Part shown: positions 1-63,999 of the stretch, in pieces | Layout: each line of letters opens with the position of its first letter | Position numbering within the stretch: the stretch's first letter is position 1 | From: the human T2T-CHM13v2.0 reference genome, Homo sapiens | Direction: 5' to 3' | Assembly: GCA_009914755.4 (NCBI GenBank) | Contig: CP068257.2 | Location: 18,816,001-18,880,000, forward strand | Length of the DNA: 64,000 bases | Position numbers and translations under genes: made by a program | The notes under the pieces: generated by a model | Databases searched by the model: none | Seen by the model: only the letters and a program-made list of their open reading frames with translations | Told to the model about the DNA's origin: nothing

Positions 1-3330
<3,330 letters not shown>

Positions 3331-4699
3331 GTGGTCTAGTGTTATGAAAGTGTCATATGAAATTGTAACTGTTTTTGAATACTATTACAATTCATGAAGA
3401 GTGTCTAAGAACAATGTTGTAAATCATGAAGAGTATCTAAGAAGGTCTTGAGGCCTGTCCCCATAATTGGCACAACACCGAGCTCCTGCTAGTGCTGGTA
3501 ACCTTGTTTAATTAAAGTGAATAAATTTAAAATGAATAGGTTTGTGAACTTGATGAAATATTCTAAATTAAATAATTAACATAGTATATAGAGAGGTAAT
3601 ATACTACATGAATGTGTTTCTTGTGACTACCAGGTATCATCGGCTTCAGTTGATGTATAATAATTAAGAATAGTAATCTTAATCCCACAGAAAAAGTGGA
3701 AACATAGCAAATGAACACATCTCAAAATTATCCTATTTGAGGGCAAAGATAGCTAGAATATGTTTACACAAAATACGAAGTCGTTGTTTGGGGGTTCTGA
3801 TGGTGCCAGCACTTCTTTAGGCTGGCAATTCTGCATGCAACAGTTATAGCAATGAAAGTCTTCAGGCCATTGAAATTGTATCCTGGAAGATCTTCAGGCC
3901 ATATATGGGCCAAGGATAGCAGCTGTCACAGGAAAAAAATCATCATGATGACTTATGGTAAGCCAAGCTCTTACATATCAAATGTAGATTGGAATGGCAA
4001 GATAGTTTACAGACTAGGTAAGATTGTGATTGTGATTTTTAAACTAAAAAAATTTAGGCATCCTTTCTATTAAATTCCGAGCATTGTCTTTTATAATGCC
4101 CATTCTCTTTCCAATTCCATGACTTTACATTTTCCTCTACATATTTTCTTCCGCTTTTCAAATTCCTTTTGATAATGTTGATTTAATATTGGATAATCAA
4201 AACAAGGATGAGTGAGCGAAGTTGAAATGCCTTCTATAAAACAATTGGAATCTTCTTGTCATATTTTGTTTTACCTTAAATTTATTGAAACTCATTTTTT
4301 AGAATCATACAGTTCTATTTCTCAATGGAAAAGAAAGTGTTCTATAATAAATGTTGAATTAAAGGTAACTTTGTATCTTCTGCTTTATCATTTTAATCCT
4401 TATTGAACATTCTGTTGACATTGCATAAATACATTCTTATAATCTTTATACAAAATTTATTGTAACAAATTACATATTTGTAAATAAAATTTTAAAATTT
4501 CCCCTAAATTTAAATTGAATAATTTTAATTTCTTGATTTTTTGAAACCAATATTGTGTGTGGTATTTAAATAGAAATCTTTGAAAATACATTCATTAAAT
4601 ATGTTATCTCATTATAAAATATTTTCAATTACTGTTTTAAATAATGAAGAACATTTTATACTTTTCCCTTATTTTCACTATTTTAAAAATTTCATTAAG

Positions 4700-5887: not shown

Positions 5888-5963
<76 letters not shown>

Positions 5964-5972
5964 AGAGAGAGA
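5888..5972. repeat. Compound microsatellite (CA)~21(GA)~20 inside the L1 ORF1 region
   Basis: Direct reading shows 'acacacac...' from ~5888 to 5930, then 'agagagag...' with a few interruptions to ~5972. Confidence 0.95.
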
Positions 5973-7608
5973 AGAGATTTTGGCTTTCCTGGAAAATAAT
6001 TCCAAATAATCCTCTTAAGGAAATGCAGTGAGATGCAACAGAACACAGATAAAAAAGCTAAACAATTTTTAAATGCATAAACAAAATTATAAGTTTAAAA
6101 AGAAATAGAAAAAATAAAAAAGGACCAGGCAGAATCCTGAGCTAAAGAGTACAGTGACAGGACTGAAAATTTTAATAGACAGTTGCAATAGCAGACAGTC
6201 ACTCAGAAGAAAGAATCATCAAACTTGAAGTTAAGTTATTTGAAATTAGCCAGTTGGTGGATAAAAGAAAGTGAAGAAATATACTAGATCTAAAATTAGT
6301 ATGGAGCTACAAAAGACCCTGAAGAGCCAAAGCAATCTTGAGTAAGAAGAACAAAGCTGGAGTCATCACACTTACTGATTTCAAACTACATTACAAGCCT
6401 TTAGTAATCAAAACAGTACGGTACTGGCATAAAAACAGATACACAGGACAATGGAACAAAATAGAGAGCTCAGAAATAAACTCATGCATACACAACCAAT
6501 TTCTGAGAATCTACAACCATCTTTGAGAAGAGCTCTGAAAGTACCCAAGGAGGAAAGTTTCATCTCTTCAATAAATGGTGTTTGGAAAACTAGATAGCCA
6601 TATACAAAATGATGAAACTGGGTCCTTTTATCATATATAAGTTAACCCAAATGGATTACAGACTTAAAAGTAAGATCTGAAATGGTAAAACTCCTAGAAG
6701 AAAACATAGAGAAAAAGCTCCTTGACATTGGTCTTGGAAATAATTTTTTGGATATTGCATCAAAAGCACTGGTTAAACAAAACAAAACAAAAATAAACAA
6801 GTGGGACTCCATCAAACTAAAAACTTACTGCAGAGCAAAGAAAACAATCAACAAAATGAAAAGGCAATCTCAGACTGGGAAAAATATATGCAAACCACAT
6901 ATACAATAAGGGATAATATTCAAAATATTTAAAGAACTAAATTCAATAGCATAAAATAAATAAATAACCTAATTAAGAATGGGCAAAGGACCTGAATAGA
7001 TATTTCCCAAAAGAAGACATACAAACGGCCAACAGGTATAGGGGAAGGTGCTTCAAATCAACCATCACCGGCGAAATATAAACTAAAACTATAAGTTATT
7101 ACCTCACATCTGTTAGAATGGTGGTTATCACTAAAGACAGGATAACAAAAGTTGATTAGGGTAAGGAGAAAAGAAAACTCCTGTACACTGTTGGTGGGAA
7201 TTGTATATTGGTACAGCCATTATGGAAAACAGTGTGGAAATTCCACAAAAAATTCAAAATAGATCTATCATATGATCCAGTATTCCATTTCTGGGTATAT
7301 AACCAAAACAACTGAAAATAGAATCATGAAGAATTATTTGTACGCTCATGTTCATTGTAGCAGTATTCCTAATACCCAAGCTATGGAAATAACACAAACG
7401 TCCATCAACAGATAAATAGATAAAGAAAATGTAATAAAGATTATCTGTGTGTATATATACATGCAATGGAATATTATTCAGACTTAAAAGGAAGTAAATC
7501 ATGTCATTTTCAATAACATGGATGAACCTAGATTGTGCTAGTGAAATAAGACAAAGAAAGACCAATATTGTATACTACACTTATCAGTGGAATCTAAAGA
7601 AGTCAAAC

Positions 7609-13779: not shown

Positions 13780-13990
13780 GTGTATATATATAAAATATAT
13801 AATATATAATAATATATAATATATATTATATAATTATATATAATTATATAATATATAATAAAATTATATATAATAATATAATATATTTATATAAATATAT
13901 AATATATATAATATGTATATATAATTATATTATATATTATATATAACATATATATAATGTAATATATTATATATGTGTGTATATGTAGCA
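13780..13990. repeat. ~210-bp AT-only low-complexity block made of irregular TATAA/TATAT/ATAAT units, flanked by short (GT)n
   Basis: Direct reading shows essentially only A and T across this stretch. It is bounded by 'gtatgtgtgtgtgtatatatata' on the left and 'tatatatgtgtgtatatgtag' on the right. Confidence 0.9.
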
Positions 13991-21943: not shown

Positions 21944-24280
21944 CAAGTATACCTTGTTTTATTGTGCTTTTCAGATGTTCCTTTTTTTGTTTTTTACAAA
22001 TTGAAGATTTGAGGCAACATCTGTCCAACAAGTATATCAGCACCATTTTTCCAACAGTATGTGCTCACTTCATAACCCTGTGTCACGTTTTTGTAATTCT
22101 TACAATATTTCAATCTTTATTATTATTATTATATGTAATTTTTGAAGTTACTATTGTAATCGTTTTGGAGCACAACAAACTACACCCATATAAGATGGCA
22201 AACTTAATCAATAAATATGTATGTTCTCACTGCTCCAGCTGCTGTTCATCTTCCAGTCTGTCTCTCTCTCTGTGGGCTTCTCTATTCCCCAAAACATAAA
22301 AATATTGAATTTAGACAAATTAACAATCCTACAATAGCTTCTAAATTTTCAAGTGAAAGGAAGAGTTGTGCCTATCTCACATTAAGTCAAACACTAGAAA
22401 TAATTAAGCTTAGTGAGAAAGGTGTGTCAAAAGCAGAGACAAACTGAAAGCTAGGCCTCCTGTGTTAAAGAGTTGGTCAAGTTGTGAATGTAAATAAAAA
22501 ATTATTGAAGAAAATTAAAAGCGCTATTCCAGCGATCACATGAATGATAAGAAGGTGAAATGGCCTTATTATTGATATGGAGAAAGTTTGAGTGGTCTAG
22601 ATGGAAGATCAAACTAGCCACAACATTCCCTTAAGCCAAAGCCTATCCAGATCAAGGCCTTACCTCTTTTCAATTCTATGACGGTAGGCTGCGAGAGGTG
22701 AGGAAGCTGAAGAAGAAAAGGTGGAAGGTAGCAGAGGTTGGTCCATGAAATGTAAGGAAAGAAGCCATCTCTGTAACATAAAAGTGTGGCAACAAGTGCT
22801 GATGTAGAAGGTACAGCAAGTTTTTCAGAAGATCTGGCTGAGATAATTGATGAAGAAAGCTCACTAAACAATAGATTTTCAGTGTAGCCAAAGCATCCTT
22901 CTATTGGAAGAAGTGCAACCTAGGACTTTCATAGCCAGAGAAGAGAAGTCAATGCCTGGCTTCAAATCTTCAAAGGATAGGCTGACTCTCTTGATAAGAC
23001 TAATGCAGATGACAAATGTAAGTTGAAGTCAATCTTCATTTACTATCTGAAAATAATAGAGCCCTTACAAATTATGCTAAATCTACTTTGCCTTTGCTCT
23101 AGAAATGAAAGAACAAAGTCTGGAGAACAGCACATCTGGTCACAGAATGGCTTACTGAATAATTTAAGTCCACTGTTGAGACCTACAGCTCAGAAAAAAA
23201 AAGTTTCAAAATATTCCTTCTCTTTAGCAATGCCTCTGGTCACCCAAGAGCTCTGATGAAGAAGCACAAAAGATTAATGTTGTTATACCTGCAAAAACAA
23301 TGTCCATATTGCATATTATGGATCAAGGAGTAATTACAACTTTCAAGTTTTATTATTTAAGAAATACATTTTGTAAGACTTTAGCTAGCATAGGTAATCA
23401 TTTCTTAGATAGACATGAGCAAAGTAAATTGAAACCTGAAAAGGACTCATCATTCTAAATGTCATTAAGGACATTTGTGTTTCACAGTAGAAGGTCAAAA
23501 TACCTACTTTAACAGAAGTCTGAAAACAGTTGATTACAACCCTCAAGGAAGACTTGAGGGGTTCAAGACTTCGACAGAGGAAGAAGTAATTGCAGATGTG
23601 GTGGAAATAGCAAGATAAATAGAATAAGAAGTGGAGCCTTAAGATGTGACTTAATTGCCACAATTTCATGATTAAACTGGAATGCACAAGGAGTTGGTTT
23701 ATATGGATGAGCAAAGAAAGTGGTTTCTTGAGATGGAATCTACTCCTGCTGAAGAGGCTGTGAACATAGCCAAAATGACAGCAAAGGGTTTAGAATATGG
23801 CTTAATTGATATTGCAGTGGCAGGTTTTGAGAGGACGGACTCTGATTTTAAAAGAGATTCTATTGTGAGTAAAATGCTATCAAATATTGTGGCATGCTAC
23901 AGAGAAATCTTGCATGAAGGGAACAATCGATGTTCCAAACTTCATTGTCTTATTCTCAGACACCGTCTCAGCCACCCTAAACTTCACCAACAACCATCCT
24001 GACCATTCAGCTGCCATCAACATCGAGGCATCATCCTCCATAAGCATACAGACTGTGACTGGCTGAAGGCTCAGATAATTGTTAGCATTTTTAACAATTA
24101 AGGATTGTACATTTTTTTAGACACAATGCTATTACACCCTTAATAGAGTACAGTATAGTGTAAATATAGCTTTTATATGCACTGGAAAACCAAAAAAATT
24201 GTGTGACTTGCTTTATCGCGATATTTGCTTTATTACGTTGATCTAGAACCAAACTGGCAATATCTCCAAGGTATGTCTAT
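21944..24280 (+). mobile_element. Tigger1 (pogo/Tc1-mariner superfamily DNA transposon), near full-length (~2.3 kb), flanked by TA
   Basis: The 5' end is 'caagtataccttgttttattgtgcttt...tttacaaattgaagatttgaggcaacatctgtccaacaagtatatcagcaccatttttccaacagtatgtgctcacttcat'. Internal transposase-region strings include 'agtgaaaggaagagttgtgcctatctcacattaagtcaaacactagaaataattaagcttagtgagaaaggtgtgtcaaaagcagagac', 'cattcccttaagccaaagcctatccagatcaaggcc' and 'ggatgagcaaagaaagtggtttcttgagatggaatctactcctgctgaag'. The 3' end is 'gtgtgacttgctttatcgcgatatttgctttattacgttgatctagaaccaaactggcaatatctccaaggtatgtcta'. ORFs 21964-22299, 23385-23714 and 23682-24002 are transposase remnants. Confidence 0.9.
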
Positions 24281-25370
24281 AATTTCCAACCATATAATTT
24301 AATCCTGTTATTTACCAGTGAAGCAGGATTATGAATCATTGTGGTTCATCAAGAAAAATGGCCTTCCAAATTCAGCATTTGTATTATGCAAATAAATGTT
24401 CTATAGATTTACTTTTTTTTTATTTTGGAGTTTGCTGCATGGTTTCATATTTGTACATGATGCTCTTTAAACCAAACTGATAAAAACAGCATATTAAGTA
24501 ATACATTTTTGTTAGAACTTTCACTATTTGTATATATATTTTGAATATTTTTACTTAATATTATTTAATATAGAGAATAGTGTCCTCTAAATATAGCCTT
24601 GGAGACAAGAGTTCTGCCATTTTAGATTTAATTCATATGAACACCTTAACATTCCTAAATTCCATATTCTGTTACTAATTGCTACTTAGCATTCAATTTT
24701 CAATATCTTTGAATTTAAGCTCATAAGGCCCTTTGAAAATCTCCTGAAAGTAATTGTTTTGATGTAATGATGTCAGCTCATTACCTAATTCATCAAAGTG
24801 ACACTACATTTAATAGACTACCAAAGTATTAATGCCCTATTTCATGTAGAGATAAAAATCCAGAAAACGATCTAGTTAGAAAATCCAGTTAGAAAAAATT
24901 TGTAACTTGAAGCTTCTTGTTATGAAGTTTCCATGTCTATCTGTCATTTTCCACTGGCAATTCATAGTAAATGAAATTGAACAACGGCAGACAAAATTAT
25001 TTTTAAAGCTACACTAGTCCACTATATGTAATTAAATATGACCAACAAAAATTACATATTCCATTAATTATTTACATTGTATTTGCCTTTTGTTCAAGAA
25101 TTGCTAACCATATCAAAATTTTTCTGCTCACTTTTATTATTAGTTTTAAAATATAGAATGAATACCAATATCCCTAACTCCTGTATCTGTACCAAAACAT
25201 TTTTGGACAAGGTCATTGGTTGGTTAACTATTTTTCTTTCATCTCCAAATATGTAGAACTTTTTTTCTGAGTAATATTTGAGGAACAGAACTACAAATTC
25301 CACTAAGAACATGCTTTTCATATAAATTATTCTGATGAATCCAACAACTGCTCTCTATCTGCCCTGTGAC

Positions 25371-30194: not shown

Positions 30195-30229
30195 TTTTTT
30201 TTTTTTTTTTTTTTTTTTTGATGTACATA
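30195..30229. repeat. Pure mononucleotide run T35, not attached to an Alu
   Basis: Direct reading: 'aggg' + 35 x T + 'gatgtacatat'. Confidence 0.95.
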
Positions 30230-34725: not shown

Positions 34726-35076
<351 letters not shown>

Positions 35077-35940
35077 TAAGCACTTTAATTAGAATAATTT
35101 TATATGATTAGTTACTATGTTGGTGGTTGTATTTTTTTGTTATAATTTTTCATTTTGCTCTTCCTGCTTCTTTTTTCATTGGTAACACCATCTATTTTCA
35201 CCCATTTTATGTCCTAATAAGAAAGGTAAATGAAATATTATAAGCAGTTTTTGTATTTAACGTAAAATAATGCATCTGTAATTTTGTAGAATTCAGTCCA
35301 CATTTATTGTAATAACTGATACATGATTTATTTTTCAATTTTTTTCTGTTTTTTTTCATTTTTCTTTTTCCAATTATTTTCTGGAAGCATCAGGGTGCTA
35401 TTAAATCTCTTTTCTTCTTTTTTTATGCATATTTATGGAGATTTTCTTTAATTATTAATCTGTTAAAGTTTACTTTTCCTTTCCTGGTATTCATATTCAA
35501 ATCTATTTTCTCAACTATTATGTGAAGACAAGGTAATTATTTCCCCCTCCAAGGCACTCTCTTCTTCCAATGATTTCTTTAAAATAATTTCACTTCCACA
35601 CATCTCTCCCACCCTCACGAGATTATGCCTCTTCTCAGTCTTTAATATTAGGTCACATTGTAATAATTAATATTTTGAGTCCTTGTTTATTACAAAGATT
35701 TACTTTGAAACGCGTCTCTTGTTGCATCTTTTTAAAGGATTCATGCTAATTTTTGGAAGTCTGTTATTTTGTATATAGATCTATTACACATATACAGCAA
35801 GGCCTGTGCTCATTGTTTTCTTCCCTCTTAATTTTTCCTGTTTTGAATCTGCAGTTCCGATTCACTTACCATTTACTATGGCTTTTTTCTTTAGCATTCC
35901 CTAATTCGGAGGCTGCAAGTAATCCTTGTGGAAGTCTTTC

Positions 35941-36104
35941 ATTTATTTTATTTTATTTTATTTTATTTTATTTTATCTTATCTTATTTTATTTTATTTTA
36001 TTTTATTTTATTTTATTTTATTTTATTTTATTTTATTTTATTTTATTTTATTTTATTTTATTTTATTTTATGTTATTTTATTTTATTTTATTTTATTTTA
36101 TTTT
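35941..36104. repeat. (TTTTA)n pentanucleotide microsatellite, ~33 units. The longest pure run is ~17 units at ~35986-36070. Interruptions are 'atctt' x2 and 'tgtta'. It is the expanded A-tail of the adjacent antisense Alu.
   Basis: Direct reading. The array abuts the Alu at 36101-36390 with no spacer, so on the Alu's own strand it is (TAAAA)n derived from the poly-A tail. ORFs 35753-36326 ([10 protein letters not shown]...) are pure repeat translations. Confidence 0.95.
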
Positions 36105-36390
36105 GAGACGGAGTCCCACTCTGTAGTCCAGATTGGAGCGCAATGTCGCAATCTCGGCTCACTGCAACCTCTGACTCCCGGGTTCCAGTCACTCTCCTGC
36201 CTCAGCCTCCCGAGTATCTGGGATAACAGGCGCCCGCCATCACGCCCAGCTAATTTTTGTATTTTTAGTAGAAATGGGGTTTCGCCATCTTGGCCAGGCT
36301 GGTCTGGAGCTTCTGACCTCAGGTGATCTGCCTGCCACGGCCTCCCAAAGTGCTAGAGATTATTACAGGCATGAGCCACCGTGCCCGGCC
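36101..36390 (-). mobile_element. Alu, minus orientation
   Basis: 'ttttgagacggagtcccactctgtagtccagattggagcgcaatgtcgcaatctcggctcactgcaacctctgactcccgggttccagtcactctcctgcctcagcctcccgagtatctgggataacaggcgcccgccatcacgcccagctaatttttgtatttttagtagaaatggggtttcgccatcttggccaggctggtctggagcttctgacctcaggtgatctgcctgccacggcctcccaaagtgctagagattattacaggcatgagccaccgtgcccggcc'. Confidence 0.95.
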
Positions 36391-39790
<3,400 letters not shown>

Positions 39791-41329: not shown

Positions 41330-41685
41330 TATACTTTAAGTTCTAGGGTACATGTGCACAACATGCAGATTTGTTACATATGTACCCATGTGCCATGTTG
41401 GTGTGCTGCACCTATTAACTTGTCATTTACATTAGGTATAACTCCTAATTCTATCCCTCCCCCCTCCCCCAACAGCACAACAGGCCCTGGTTTGTGATGT
41501 TCCCCTTCCTGTGTCCAAGTGTTCTCATTGTTTAATTCCCACCTATGAGTGAGAACATGCAGTGTTTGGTTTTCTGTCCCTGCGATAGTTTGCTGAGAAT
41601 GATGGTTTCCAGTTTCATCCATGTCCTTACAAGGGACATGAACTCATCCTTTTTTATGGCTGCATAGTATTCCATGGTGTATATG
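41330..41685 (-). mobile_element. L1PA-type 3'-terminal fragment (~360 bp), antisense
   Basis: 'tatactttaagttctagggtacatgtgcacaacatgcagatttgttacatatgtacccatgtgccatgttggtgtgctgcacctattaacttgtcatttacattaggtataactcctaat...cccacctatgagtgagaacatgcagtgtttggttttctgtccctgcgatagtttgctgagaatgatggtttccagtttcatccatgtccttacaagggacatgaactcatccttttttatggctgcatagtattccatggtgtatat' is the reverse complement of the young L1 3' end. The related ORF 41374-41622 is L1-derived. Confidence 0.9.
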
Positions 41686-42889
41686 AGGCACTAGAAAAAT
41701 TCTTGGACAAAATTTTATAATGTAACTTCCATAAATGGTATAGAGTTTAGGTAACTAGTTCTTTAGGCACACAGGCTGTTTATGATATGGTAGTTAAAAT
41801 AATTTGCATAACATTGACTATTTTCTATGACTTCTGATTAAAATAAAATAGGTGAAGTAAGACTATTTTCATGACAAGTGGGAAAAGCAAACATGCTTCA
41901 TTGACATTTCATTAACATAATGATTGTTCTCACTCATTCATTAGTTTGTAATTCGAAGTATAAAATAGCAAATACTCTCTAAGCATAAAATGATGGCTGT
42001 GTCATCAAGCATAGAGAAACAATAAGTTTATTGCCTCTAAGTTAAAAAAGCATATTGTTTATGTTTTTAGAAATAGAATTCAAAATATTTAAGGTCTGTA
42101 GTCTTAGAGGATTTAAGACTCTCACATGATATTTAAAGAAAGGAAATACAATCTCATTTAAGAAAAAATACCTTCAACATTTTGAGGCATGTGATTCAGA
42201 AAACAATACCAAGTCTTTCTTTAGTACTCCCATATTAGAGTTGGGCATTTGAAAAATGTATCCATCTATCCACTGTATCATTGATTTTAGAGGTGATTTG
42301 TCACTCTGCAAGGGGTCTTCTCTTGAGTTTGACAGCTTTTGATGAAAATCTGAAATTAGAGAAGAATTACCTGAGCAGAGACAGATGAGCCAAATGACAT
42401 GAGGCACTGAAGATAAGTACCCCAGTCTTGTTCTCAGATTGATGATTTATTTATCAGAATGCACTGGGGAAAGTAAAGTTTATCACAAGTGATTGAGGAA
42501 ACAAGCAAAAAAGATAAAAGACAATAAATAAATAGTGTAAATTGAACACGTTACTCCTGAAATGTCCACTAATACTTAAACAAGATGGAGAAGAAGAACA
42601 ACATTATGAACACACATACAATCACACACACACACATAACAACAACAACAGCACATTATAAGCCATTCTAATGAGAACAAAACAGAATATTTAAGTGTTT
42701 GGTGAAATTGTAGGGTAGACAATAGGTGAAGTGACATGAAATTTGTTAATGAGAAAATAGCTTATTCTGCTAGCAACAAAATAGGGAGCATCCTCTACAG
42801 CACAAATTATTCTCATCAAATTTTAGTAACTTTTAAGTTTAAGTTATGGAAATTATAGATCAAAACCAATAGAAACTACATAGTCGATA

Positions 42890-43100
42890 TTTTACTTCAT
42901 TTGGGCTGCTATAACCAAATACCATAAGCTGTCTGGATTATAAACAACAGAAATGTATTTTTCACAGTTCAGGTGACTGGTAAGTCCAAGATTAAGGTGC
43001 CAGCACATTTGGTATCTAGTGAGTGTATGCTTCCTAATAAATAGCTGTCTTCTCACTGTGTCCTCACATGGTGAAGGGAGCAAAGAAGCACTCTGGGATC
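42890..43100 (-). mobile_element. MaLR LTR 3'-end fragment (MLT1/MST-like), minus orientation
   Basis: 'ttgggctgctataaccaaataccataagctgtctggattataaacaacagaaatgtatttttcacagttcaggtgactggtaagtccaagattaaggtgccagcacatttgg...tcttctcactgtgtcctcacatggtgaagggagcaaag' is the reverse complement of the shared MaLR LTR tail '...tgtgaggacacagcaagaagg...ccagcaccttgatcttggacttcccagcctccagaactgtgagaaataaatgtttgttgtttaagccacccagtctatggtattttgttatagcagcccaa'. Confidence 0.55.
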
Positions 43101-43139
43101 TTTGGTGTTGAATTTTATTGAAAACTTTTTCTGCATCTA

Positions 43140-43305
43140 TTGAGATGATCATATGGTTTATGTTTTTTAACACTGTTTACATAGTAAATCACATTTATTG
43201 ATTTTATGTGTGTGTGCATGATGAATCAACCTTGCATTCCAGGAATAAAGCCTGCTTGATTGTGGTGAATTAACTTTTTGATGTGCTGCTGAATTCAGTT
43301 TGCTA
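43140..43305 (-). mobile_element. L1 ORF2 mid-region fragment (antisense), out of collinear order. It duplicates the L1 interval also present at ~46350-46560 but is diverged from it.
   Basis: 'gaaaactttttctgcatctattgagatgatcatatggtttatgttttttaacactgtttacatag...gatgaatcaaccttgcattccaggaataaagcctgcttgattgtggtgaattaactttttgatgtgctgctgaattcagtttgctagtattttgttgagaaat' parallels 46350-46560 'gaaaactttttctgcatctattgagaagattatatggtttttgttttttaacactgtttatgtgg...(GT)n...gaatgttgaaccaaccttgaatcccaggaataaaaccttgattgtggtgaattgaatgttgatgtgctgctgcattcagcttgctagtattttgttgagaaat'. Confidence 0.75.
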
Positions 43306-43526
43306 GTATTTTGTTGAGAAATAATAACCATTCTGAGATGTGGAGAGATGGTATCTCATTGTGATTTTAAGCATTAGTGATACGAGCTTTTTTTTGTATA
43401 TTTGTTGGCCACTTGTATGAATTCTTTTGAGAAATATCTGTTCATGTCCTTTGCATACTTTTTAATGGGGTTGTTTTTTGCTTATTGAGCTGTTTACATT
43501 TCTTATAGATTTTGAGCATTAGACCT

Positions 43527-55234: not shown

Positions 55235-57533
55235 TTGTATTAGTCCATTCTCATGCTGTTATAAAGAACTGCCCAAGACTGGGTAATCTACAAAGGTAAG
55301 AGGATTAATTGACTGACAGTTCCACATTGCTGGGAAGGCCTCAGGAAACTTACAATCATAGTGGAAGGCAAAAGAGAAGCAGGTACCTTCTTCACAGGTG
55401 GCAGGATGGAGTGAGTGCAAGTAGGGGAAATGCCAGATGCTTGTAAATCCATCAGATCTTGTGAGACTCCCTCACTATCACAAGAACTGCTTGGGGTAAA
55501 CTGTTTCCATGATCTGAGTTCCACCACCTGGTCTTGCCCTTAACATGTAGGGATTATGGGGATCATAATTCAAGATGAGATTTTGGGTGGGGACACAGCC
55601 AAACCATGTAAGTCTGTACCTGGCCCCTTCCAAATCTCATGTCCTCACATTTCAAAACACAATCATGCCCTTCCAACACTTTCTCAAAGTCTTACCTCAT
55701 TCCAACATTAACCCAAATGTATGAGTCCAATGTCTTTTTTGAGACAAGACAATTCCTTTTGACTGTCAACCTGTAAAATCAAAAGCAAATTAGTTACTTT
55801 CTAGATAAGATGTGGTTACACACCTTGGGTGTGTAAATGTAACCATTCCAAACAGAAGAAATTGGCCAAAACAAAGGGGCTGCAGGCCCCATACACGTCC
55901 AAAATCCAATAGGGCAGTCATTAAACCTTAAAGTTCCAAAATAATATCTTTTGACTACATGTCTCACGTCCAGGTTATGCTGATGCAAGAGGTGGGCTCC
56001 CGCAGCTTTGGGCAGCTCTGCCCTGTGGTTTAGCAGGGTACAGTCCCCCCCCCGGCTGCTTTCATGGGCTGGCATTTAGTGCCTGTGGCTCTTCCAGGTG
56101 CTCAGCGCAAGCCATTGGTGGATCTACCATTCTGGGGTCTGGAGGATGGTGGCCCTCTTCTCATAGCTCCCCTAGACCGCAGTGGGGACTCTGTGTGGAG
56201 GCTCTGACTCCAGATTTCTCTTCCACACTGCCCTGGCAGAGGTTCTCCATGGGGCCTCTGCCCCTGCAGCAAACTTCTACCTGGACACCCAGGCATTTCC
56301 ATAGGTCCTCTTAAATCTAGGCAGAGGTTCTCAAACCTCAATTCTTGACTCCTCTGCACCTGCAGGCTCAACACCATGTGGAAGCTGCCAAGGCTTGAGG
56401 CTTGCAACCTCTGAAGCAACAGCCCAAGCTGTATGTTGTCCCCTTTTAGCCACGGATGGAGCTGAAGCAGCTGGGATGCAGGGCACCATGTCTGGAGGCT
56501 GCATACAGCAGGGGGGCCCTGAGCCAGGCCCACGAAACCATTTGTATCTCCTAGGCCTCTGGGCTTGTGGTGGGAGGGGCTCCCATGAAGGTCTTTGACA
56601 TGCATTGGAGACATTTTTCCCACTGTCTTGGTGATTAACATTTGGTTTCTTGTTACACATGCAAATTTTTGTGGCTGGCTTGAATTTCTCCCCCAGAAAA
56701 TAGGGTTTTCTTTTCTGTCATATTATCAGGCTGCAAATTTTCTAAGTTTTTATGCTCTGTTTCCTCTTGAACGCTTTGCTGCTTAACATTTTCTTTTGCC
56801 AGATACCATAAATCATCTCTGTCAAGTTCAAAGTTCCACAACTCTCTAGGGCAGGGGCAAAATGCTGCCAGACTCTTTGCTAAAGCATAGCAAGAATCAT
56901 CTTTGCTCCAGTTCCCAACAAGTTCCTTATTTCTATCTGAGACCACTTCAGCCCGGACTTCATTGCCCATATCACTATCAGCATTTTACTCAAAACCTTT
57001 CAAGTCTCTAGGAAGTTCCAAACTTTTCCACATCTTCCTATCTTCTTCTGAGCCCTCCAAGCTGTTCCGACTTCTGTCTGTTACCTAGTTCCAAAGTAAC
57101 TTCCCCATTTTTTGGGTATTTTTACAGCAGAGCCCCACTACCTCAGTACTAATTTACTGTATTAGTCCATTCTCACACTGCTATAGAGAACTGTCCGAGA
57201 CTGGGTAATTTATAAAGGAAAGGTGTTTAATTGACTCACTGCTTTGCATGGCTGGGGAGCCCTCAGAAAACTTACAATCATGGTGAAAGGCAAAGGAGAA
57301 GCAGGCACTTTCTTCACAGGGTGGCAGGATGGAGTGAGTGCAAGCAGAGGAAACGCCAGACACTTATAAAACCGTCAGATCTGGTGAAACTCACTCACTA
57401 TCAAGAGAACAGCATGGGAGAAACTGCCCTCATGCTCTAATTACCTCCACCTGGTCCTGCCCTTGATACATGGGGATTATTGGGATTATATTTCAAAATG
57501 AGATTTTGGGTGGGGACACAGCCAAACTATATC
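55235..57533 (-). mobile_element. THE1/MSTA-type (ERVL-MaLR) element, copy C, full-length (~2.3 kb): LTR (55235-~55610), internal region (55611-57157), LTR (57158-57533). Minus orientation, in unique DNA.
   Basis: The LTRs run 'tgtattagtccattctcatgctgttataaagaactgcccaagactgggtaatctacaaaggtaagaggattaattgactgacagttccacattgctgggaaggcctcaggaaacttacaatcatagtggaaggcaaaagagaagcaggtacc...' and 'tgtattagtccattctcacactgctatagagaactgtccgagactgggtaatttataaaggaaaggtgtttaattgactcactgctttgcatggctggggagccctcagaaaacttacaatcatggtgaaaggcaaaggagaagcaggcac...gagattttgggtggggacacagccaaactatatca'. The internal region is homologous to copies A and B, with ORFs 56653-56970 and 56102-56641 on the minus strand. Confidence 0.9.

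Positions 57534-63669: not shown

Positions 63670-63999
<330 letters not shown>

What the first reader, a model, noticed from the sequence alone, without database searches (positions are those of the whole stretch)
35941..36390. Long (TTTTA)n pentanucleotide array (~33 units, 17-unit pure core) grown from the poly-A tail of an antisense Alu, the same architecture as the familial adult myoclonic epilepsy expansion loci
What I see directly is ~164 bp of TTTTA units on the + strand, fused without spacer to the T-side of a minus-orientation Alu (36101-36390). From established knowledge, every known FAME/BAFME locus (SAMD12, STARD7, MARCH6, YEATS2, TNRC6A, RAPGEF2) is an intronic (TTTTA)n that arose from the tail of an antisense Alu and becomes pathogenic on expansion and gain of TTTCA units. 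The reference lengths I recall for those loci are ~35-105 bp, so this array is longer than any of them in the reference genome. Most flanking LTR and L1 insertions in 34-58 kb are minus-oriented, which is the usual bias inside a + strand transcription unit, so the array would be sense-strand UUUUA if such a gene exists. The existence of that gene is inference only.
Basis: partly seen in the sequence, partly recalled or inferred. Interest (0 to 1): 0.55.

Follow-up and report, generated by a model that had tools for sequence, protein, structure and literature searches.

The report
Ordinary long Alu-tail TTTTA microsatellite
A real 164-base run of TTTTA units sits on the tail of an old Alu element, but it is one of thousands of such Alu-tail repeats in primate genomes. 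It carries no disease-type TTTCA units, and I found no evidence that it lies inside a gene.

Summary
Positions 35941-36104 hold a period-5 array of 32.6 copies at 97% match. It reads ATTTA (TTTTA)6 (TCTTA)2 (TTTTA)17 TGTTA (TTTTA)5 TTTT. It abuts the last consensus base of a full-length minus-strand AluS at 36105-36390.

A TTTTA array on an Alu tail is the usual architecture of human pentanucleotide repeats. Of 28,446 such loci, 68% lie in Alus, and AAAAT is one of the three commonest motifs. So the architecture does not single out a FAME-like locus.

The array has no TTTCA unit. It is far below pathogenic size, and TTTTA-only expansions are reported as benign. It is not the SAMD12, MARCHF6 or DAB1 locus.

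It is longer than the reference alleles of the six listed FAME loci (35-103 bp). It is also much purer than its host Alu, so slippage has been active and it is probably polymorphic.

Gene context could not be established. No exon, CpG island or RNA gene was found.

Verdict: an ordinary Alu-tail microsatellite of low interest.

The parts
35941..36104 (+). Whole pentanucleotide array. On the + strand it reads ATTTA (TTTTA)6 (TCTTA)2 (TTTTA)17 TGTTA (TTTTA)5 TTTT. On the Alu sense strand this is an (AAAAT)n tail.
   Evidence: TRF period 5, 32.6 copies, 97% match, score 305.
35986..36070 (+). Longest uninterrupted tract: 17 pure TTTTA units (85 bp).
   Evidence: register parse.
35976..35985 (+). 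Two adjacent identical variant units, TCTTA TCTTA. This looks like one point mutation later copied by a one-unit slippage. It is not a rotation of TTTCA.
   Evidence: The duplication history is inference.
36071..36075 (+). Single variant unit TGTTA.
35937..35941 (+). The only TTTCA pentamer near the array. It is a single copy in the left flank (GTC TTTCA TTTA TTTTA...), not a repeat.
36105..36390 (-). Full-length AluS element. Its 3' end (...GACTCCGTCTC) abuts the array directly.
   Evidence: consensus 1-282 aligned, 86.4% identity, best match AluSx; non-CpG divergence 9.0% (21/234), CpG-site mismatches 14/48.

Best explanation
This is a neutral, Alu-derived A-rich microsatellite. An AluS retrotransposed in minus orientation tens of millions of years ago, bringing a poly-A tail (poly-T on the + strand). 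A substitution in the tail created an AAAAT unit, and replication slippage then amplified it unit by unit. Occasional point mutations (AAGAT, AACAT on the Alu strand) were themselves carried along or duplicated. The present allele is a 164 bp array split into pure tracts of 6, 17 and 5 units. It most likely has no function. With an 85 bp pure tract it is probably length-polymorphic in the population. In this sequence it has none of the features that make the FAME/SCA37 loci pathogenic: kilobase expansion plus a TTTCA/ATTTC run in a transcribed intron. Shown here: the array, the Alu, their junction, the purity contrast and the absence of TTTCA. Inferred: tail origin, slippage history, polymorphism and neutrality.
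For: - The array starts at the base after the last Alu consensus position, with no spacer.
- The motif is one substitution away from A5. AAAAT, AAAAC and AAAAG make up 78.8% of 28,446 human pentanucleotide loci. 76.7% of AAAAT loci intersect an Alu, and about 96% of Alu-associated loci lie in the poly-A tail. AAAAT is among the most frequent motifs at Alu 3' ends.
- The array has 4 mismatches to perfect periodicity in 164 bp. About 15 would be expected at the host Alu's non-CpG divergence of 9.0% (P <= 7e-4). So the array was homogenised or expanded after insertion, as slippage predicts.
- The doubled variant unit TCTTA TCTTA is a footprint of unit-wise duplication.
- Other Alu tails in the window are the usual A17-A26 runs or short mixed A-rich repeats. 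This one is simply the long end of the same class.
- There are no TTTCA units inside the array, and the RNA is unstructured (MFE 0 kcal/mol).
- No exon-like Pfam hit was found in any of 430 stop-free segments. There is no CpG island and no Rfam family.
Against: - No target-site duplication could be recognised (p = 0.38). An Alu landing next to a pre-existing T-rich repeat, which is a good L1-endonuclease target, is therefore not excluded.
- At 164 bp the array is about four times the mean pentanucleotide locus length of roughly 40 bp. It is longer than the reference alleles of the six tabulated FAME loci. AAAAT loci are over-represented among the most expansion-prone loci. So it is not an average member of its class.
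- Neutrality and polymorphism are inferred. No population or expression data could be consulted.
Confidence: 0.85

Rival explanations
1. This is an unrecognised expansion-prone locus of the FAME/SCA37 type. It would be an intronic, sense-transcribed (UUUUA)n that in some people expands to kilobases, gains a TTTCA run and causes disease through toxic RNA.
For: - It has the same reference motif and the same Alu-tail setting as most known loci.
- The reference allele is longer than those of the six tabulated FAME loci.
- It has an 85 bp pure tract.
- AAAAT loci dominate the highest expansion scores genome-wide.
- About 8 of 9 L1/MaLR insertions in the window are minus-oriented, the bias expected inside a + strand gene.
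- The repeat itself, rather than the host gene, is thought to be the pathogenic factor.
Against: - There are no TTTCA units in the array, and the allele is 32 units against 440-3,680 in patients.
- TTTTA-only expansions are reported as benign.
- No exon, CpG island or RNA gene was found in 64 kb.
- The unique sequence shows no + strand transcription asymmetry (TA +0.003 +/- 0.007, GC -0.030 +/- 0.010).
- Alus are 6 plus and 6 minus.
- Thousands of loci share the architecture, but only seven FAME genes plus DAB1 are known, so the prior for any one locus is very low.
Confidence: 0.05
2. A T-rich microsatellite already existed here and served as the L1-endonuclease target (TTTT/A) for the Alu. 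On this reading the array is not derived from the Alu tail.
For: - No target-site duplication was found.
- Only TTTT separates the last unit from the Alu body.
- The right flank (TGTTTCTCTTACTTTA) is T-rich and contains a TCTTA pentamer.
- The Alu lies close to, and possibly within, the 3' part of an old minus-strand L1, whose detected ORF2 pieces begin at 37109.
Against: - The array is far purer than 9%-diverged surrounding sequence, so its present form post-dates the Alu in any case.
- 96% of Alu-associated pentanucleotide loci are tail-derived.
- There is no periodic TTTTA sequence on the far side of the Alu.
Confidence: 0.07
3. The array acts as a functional AT-rich DNA element, such as an unwinding element, or an enhancer-modulating Alu repeat like the one described at DAB1.
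For: An Alu-embedded ATTTT repeat lies within a DAB1 enhancer region. The array is 100% A/T apart from three bases.
Against: There is no CpG island or other regulatory hallmark nearby. Nothing distinguishes this array from thousands of neutral Alu tails. No conservation or chromatin data are available.
Confidence: 0.03

Closest known systems
Alu poly-A-tail-derived pentanucleotide microsatellites (AAAAT/TTTTA class)
   Same: The position is directly on the Alu 3' end. The motif is one substitution away from A5. The array is interrupted and purer than its host element. Xu et al. (bioRxiv 10.1101/2025.05.27.656002) describe this as the dominant class of human pentanucleotide repeats.
   Different: It differs only in degree. 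It is 164 bp against a mean locus length of about 40 bp, so it sits in the upper tail for length.
FAME loci (SAMD12, STARD7, MARCHF6, YEATS2, TNRC6A, RAPGEF2, RAI1)
   Same: The reference motif is TTTTA. It is an Alu-associated, primate-specific microsatellite, as most of these loci are.
   Different: - There is no TTTCA run and no expansion, and intronic location is not shown.
- The interruption pattern differs from every tabulated reference structure.
- SAMD12 and MARCHF6 locus-specific primers are absent from the window.
- RAPGEF2 is not Alu-derived.
- The window has no CpG island, whereas I would expect a promoter island near the intron-1 repeats of STARD7, MARCHF6 and YEATS2. That expectation is my inference, set.
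DAB1 (ATTTT)n / SCA37
   Same: The motif is the same (ATTTT is a rotation of TTTTA), and it lies in an antisense Alu within a very large, AT-rich gene region.
   Different: The DAB1 repeat is in the middle A-rich linker of a degenerate AluJb next to a CpG island. Here the array is at the 3' tail of a full-length AluS, with no CpG island.
RFC1 (AAAAG)n / CANVAS and BEAN1 (TAAAA)n / SCA31
   Same: These are A-rich pentanucleotide repeats. Ten of the eleven disease-associated loci, these among the eleven, map to Alus. In them a non-reference motif, not the reference motif, is the pathogenic part.
   Different: The motif (RFC1) or the inserted motif differs. Nothing comparable is present in this allele.

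Membership tests
Alu-tail-derived A-rich pentanucleotide microsatellite | The array abuts the 3' end of an Alu on the A-rich (tail) side. | tested here: met
   Alu consensus positions 1-282 align to 36390-36105 on the minus strand. The array ends at 36104.
Alu-tail-derived A-rich pentanucleotide microsatellite | The motif is derived from poly-A by a single substitution (AAAAT, AAAAC or AAAAG). | tested here: met
   The unit on the Alu strand is AAAAT. 28 of the 31 full units are the pure motif.
Alu-tail-derived A-rich pentanucleotide microsatellite | Target-site duplications bracket Alu plus array, which would prove the array lies inside the insertion. | tested here: inconclusive
   The best local alignment of the 50 bp flanks is a 7-mer, no better than shuffles (p = 0.38). 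This is expected for an Alu about 9% diverged, but tail origin remains unproven.
Alu-tail-derived A-rich pentanucleotide microsatellite | The array is younger or more homogeneous than the host element, showing slippage turnover. | tested here: met
   4 mismatches in 164 bp, against about 15 expected at the Alu's non-CpG divergence. P <= 7e-4.
FAME/SCA37-type pathogenic TTTTA/TTTCA expansion locus | The reference motif is (TTTTA)n. | tested here: met
FAME/SCA37-type pathogenic TTTTA/TTTCA expansion locus | A TTTCA (ATTTC) repeat run is present within the array. | tested here: not met
   There are no TTTCA units in the array. The variants are TCTTA x2 and TGTTA, which are not rotations of TTTCA. 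One isolated TTTCA lies in the left flank at 35937-35941. This describes this allele only.
FAME/SCA37-type pathogenic TTTTA/TTTCA expansion locus | Large expansion: hundreds to thousands of units, 2-18 kb. | tested here: not met
   32.6 units (164 bp), against 440-3,680 units in patients. This describes this allele only.
FAME/SCA37-type pathogenic TTTTA/TTTCA expansion locus | The array lies in an intron and is transcribed so that the RNA reads UUUUA/UUUCA. | tested here: inconclusive
   - No exon-like Pfam hit in 430 stop-free segments, no CpG island and no Rfam hit.
- L1/MaLR orientation favours a + strand gene, but the TA/GC skew of unique sequence does not.
- The window could not be mapped to an annotated genome.
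FAME/SCA37-type pathogenic TTTTA/TTTCA expansion locus | Length is polymorphic or unstable in the population, with expanded alleles. | not testable with these tools
   No population or long-read data are available. Scans of metagenome and genome contigs for the flank found no other copy.
Identity with a known disease locus (SAMD12, MARCHF6, DAB1) | Published locus-specific flanking primers, or the described local anatomy, are present in the window. | tested here: not met
   - SAMD12 STRF, PreF and PreR2 are absent at <=4 mismatches; only the Alu-derived primer hits other Alus.
- Six MARCH6 intron-1 primers are absent at <=3 mismatches.
- DAB1 anatomy (mid-Alu tract of an AluJb next to a CpG island) does not match.
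- STARD7, YEATS2, TNRC6A, RAPGEF2 and RAI1 were excluded only by their different reference array structure or context. They were not tested with primers.

The most novel reading that the evidence does not exclude
The array marks a previously unrecognised, expansion-prone TTTTA locus inside a long intron of a + strand, brain-expressed gene. Rare expanded alleles that gain TTTCA runs would then explain some unsolved families with cortical myoclonic tremor, epilepsy or ataxia.
Probability: 0.02. Interest if true: 0.6.

Novelty: already known. Interest (0 to 1): 0.12.

Why it matters
As it stands it matters little. It is a routine product of Alu retrotransposition followed by replication slippage, of a kind catalogued in the tens of thousands. 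It has one practical value. Long, fairly pure TTTTA arrays are the substrate from which the FAME and SCA37 mutations arose, and AAAAT loci are over-represented among the most expansion-prone loci. A 32-unit reference allele could therefore reasonably go on a watch-list when unsolved myoclonus-epilepsy or ataxia families are screened with long reads. That value depends entirely on facts not available here: map position, host gene and population allele spectrum.

Tried and rejected
**Locating the window**
- I scanned metagenome contigs and GTDB genome contigs for a 24-mer from the left flank and found 0 hits.
- I looked up two window ORFs by exact sequence, including the one that spans the array. 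Neither is on record.
- I searched full text for six flank k-mers and found 0 papers.

**Looking for exons**
- I ran all 430 stop-free segments of >=45 aa outside Alus against Pfam.
- Only transposon domains matched: DDE_1 plus CENP-B_N (probably a Tigger-type DNA transposon; the segments were not individually located) and RVT_1 (L1).
- A Sushi hit at E = 0.0098 is what chance gives across 145 tests, and no segment looks Sushi-like. Weak FAM27, Zn-ribbon and EGF hits are likewise noise.
- Ranking the non-repeat segments by human-like amino-acid composition produced nothing that looked like an exon.

**Searches I chose not to run**
- I did not use the search for homologous proteins. A concatenated multi-kilobase query would overload its word index. 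A short query of guessed exons had an estimated success chance of about 3-5% for about 13 CPU-hours.
- I also skipped a PDB scan of the same segments, for low expected yield.

**Other null or side results**
- Rfam at gathering threshold gave no match.
- The CpG observed/expected scan found no island.
- No target-site duplication was recognisable.
- The RNA fold of the array has MFE 0, so it has no structure.
- A supplement of the SAMD12 founder paper and the Xu et al. supplement hold no usable tables.

**Considered and rejected**
- The window is not the SAMD12, MARCHF6 or DAB1 locus.

Full report
**1. The observation**

The sequence at 35941-36104 is a period-5 tandem array. Tandem Repeats Finder gives 35942-36104, 32.6 copies, 97% matches, no indels and score 305. 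That is the best score of any tandem repeat in the window. Parsed in the TTTTA register, it reads:

| Positions | Content |
|---|---|
| 35941-35945 | ATTTA |
| 35946-35975 | (TTTTA)6 |
| 35976-35985 | (TCTTA)2 |
| 35986-36070 | (TTTTA)17 |
| 36071-36075 | TGTTA |
| 36076-36100 | (TTTTA)5 |
| 36101-36104 | TTTT |

Base 36105 is the last consensus base of a full-length Alu on the minus strand. Consensus positions 1-282 align to 36390-36105. The best match is AluSx at 86.4% identity.

**2. What the array is**

On the Alu's own strand the array is an (AAAAT)n tail. The literature held here describes this as the standard origin of human pentanucleotide repeats.
- Xu et al. (bioRxiv 10.1101/2025.05.27.656002) genotyped 28,446 pentanucleotide loci.
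- 68.4% of them map to Alus, and about 96% of those lie in the poly-A tail.
- AAAAC, AAAAT and AAAAG together make up 78.8% of loci, and 76.7% of AAAAT loci intersect an Alu.
- A second study lists AAAAT among the most frequent motifs at Alu 3' ends.

Within this window the other ten Alu tails examined are A17-A26 homopolymers or short mixed A-rich repeats. This array is simply the long end of a common class.

**3. Evidence for slippage turnover**

The host Alu differs from the consensus at 21 of 234 non-CpG positions (9.0%). At that rate a 164 bp array of the same age should carry about 15 substitutions. It carries 4 departures from perfect periodicity, probably three events (P <= 7e-4). The two adjacent identical variant units TCTTA TCTTA look like one point mutation later copied by a one-unit slip. 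That is the same two-step process proposed for the birth of non-reference motifs at disease loci (discussion of Xu et al.). So the array has been growing or homogenising since insertion. With an 85 bp pure tract it is probably polymorphic, but that is inference.

I could not find target-site duplications (p = 0.38). Tail origin is therefore the parsimonious reading, not a proven one. An Alu landing beside a pre-existing T-rich run, which is a good L1-endonuclease site, remains possible.

**4. Comparison with the FAME loci**

The hg38 intervals printed in PMC11006339 are:

| Locus | Reference interval |
|---|---|
| YEATS2 | 35 bp |
| TNRC6A | 40 bp |
| STARD7 | 55 bp |
| MARCHF6 | 73 bp |
| RAPGEF2 | 90 bp |
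| SAMD12 | 103 bp |

So 164 bp is longer than all six. It is also about four times the genome-wide mean locus length of roughly 40 bp.

The resemblance stops there.
- The array contains no TTTCA unit. TCTTA and TGTTA are not rotations of TTTCA, and the only TTTCA is a single pentamer in the left flank at 35937-35941.
- Patient alleles have 440-3,680 units.
- TTTTA-only expansions are stated to be benign (PMC12273606 abstract).

- RAPGEF2 does not map to an Alu.
- There are now seven FAME genes, including RAI1.

**5. Is this one of the known loci?**

No.
- The interruption pattern matches none of the tabulated reference structures.
- SAMD12 locus-specific primers from PMC7055650 are absent at up to 4 mismatches.
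- Six MARCH6 intron-1 primers from PMC6820781 are absent at up to 3 mismatches.
- DAB1 anatomy does not fit.
- The other loci were excluded only by array structure or context (no CpG island anywhere in the window; low Alu density). They were not tested with primers.

**6. Gene context**

Attempts to place the window failed.

Internal evidence is mixed.
Across the window about 8 of 9 insertions are minus. Several pieces are one L1 broken by MaLR insertions, so the number of independent events is small. With the antisense bias I recall for intronic L1/LTR elements (roughly 2:1, from memory), this favours a + strand gene only modestly.
- *Against.* Alus are 6 plus and 6 minus. There is no CpG island and no Rfam family. 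None of 430 stop-free segments of >=45 aa gives a non-transposon Pfam hit. The 34 kb left after masking recognisable repeats has TA skew +0.003 +/- 0.007 and GC skew -0.030 +/- 0.010. Germline-transcribed introns are expected to show several percent excess of T over A and G over C on the sense strand (established knowledge, recalled from Touchon et al. 2003). The skew test is blind to genes that are silent in the germline.
- *Verdict:* cannot tell.

**7. Mechanism and rivals**

The best explanation (0.85) is a neutral Alu-tail microsatellite grown by slippage. The rivals are:
- an unrecognised expansion-prone FAME-like locus (0.05);
- a pre-existing T-rich target rather than tail origin (0.07; this concerns origin only, not function);
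- a functional AT-rich or enhancer-modulating element (0.03).

If transcribed from the + strand, the RNA would be an unstructured U-rich run (MFE 0 kcal/mol) followed by an antisense Alu.

**8. Novelty and score**

The kind of feature is thoroughly known, and nothing in this allele departs from it except above-average length. Interest is 0.12. The only reading that would raise it is an intronic, unstable locus with TTTCA-bearing alleles. That reading has a very low prior, because thousands of loci share the architecture against eight known disease loci with this motif. It needs map position and long-read population data to test.

Noticed in passing
window 41535-52066 (minus strand): tblastn pieces look like one L1 running from ORF1 through the end of ORF2, colinear on the minus strand. 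It is interrupted by two MaLR-type internal sequences at 44066-44662 and 47197-48528, with a third MaLR copy at 56105-57123. All are minus-oriented.
   Followed up: partly
window 52100-53900: A GC-rich block (0.51-0.60 GC) that is strongly CpG-depleted (observed/expected 0.11-0.22) and open in all six reading frames. It lies directly upstream of the minus-strand L1 ORF1. It is probably an L1 5' UTR or an LTR, not a CpG island or an exon.
   Followed up: no
window ~22600-24300: Pfam DDE_1 (E = 2e-7) and CENP-B_N hits occurred among the stop-free segments. I attribute them to a Tigger/pogo-type DNA transposon remnant here, mainly because the 106-aa ORF at 23682-24002 looks Tigger-like. The Pfam output did not say which segments matched.
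   Followed up: partly
window 13783-13974: A 192 bp imperfect (TA)n / TATATAA-type AT-only tract. It is the second-largest simple repeat in the window.
   Followed up: no
window 5889-5977: A compound dinucleotide microsatellite, (AC)21 followed directly by (AG)24.
   Followed up: no
window 753-876: A 41 bp unit repeated three times at 96% identity. It lies inside an old minus-strand L1 region (465-3298).
   Followed up: no
window 53954-53991, 30195-30219 and 63712-63737: Other T-rich tail-like runs on the + strand: (TTTTG)7.8, T25 and T26. The last is the tail of the minus-strand Alu at 63738-63939. The hosts of the other two were not identified.
   Followed up: no
window 34756-35033, 36105-36390 (both minus) and 38868-39147 (plus): Two same-orientation AluS elements lie 1.1 kb apart. 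An oppositely oriented AluS lies 2.5 kb further on, inserted in an old L1. If the region is transcribed, this inverted pair could form double-stranded RNA.
   Followed up: no
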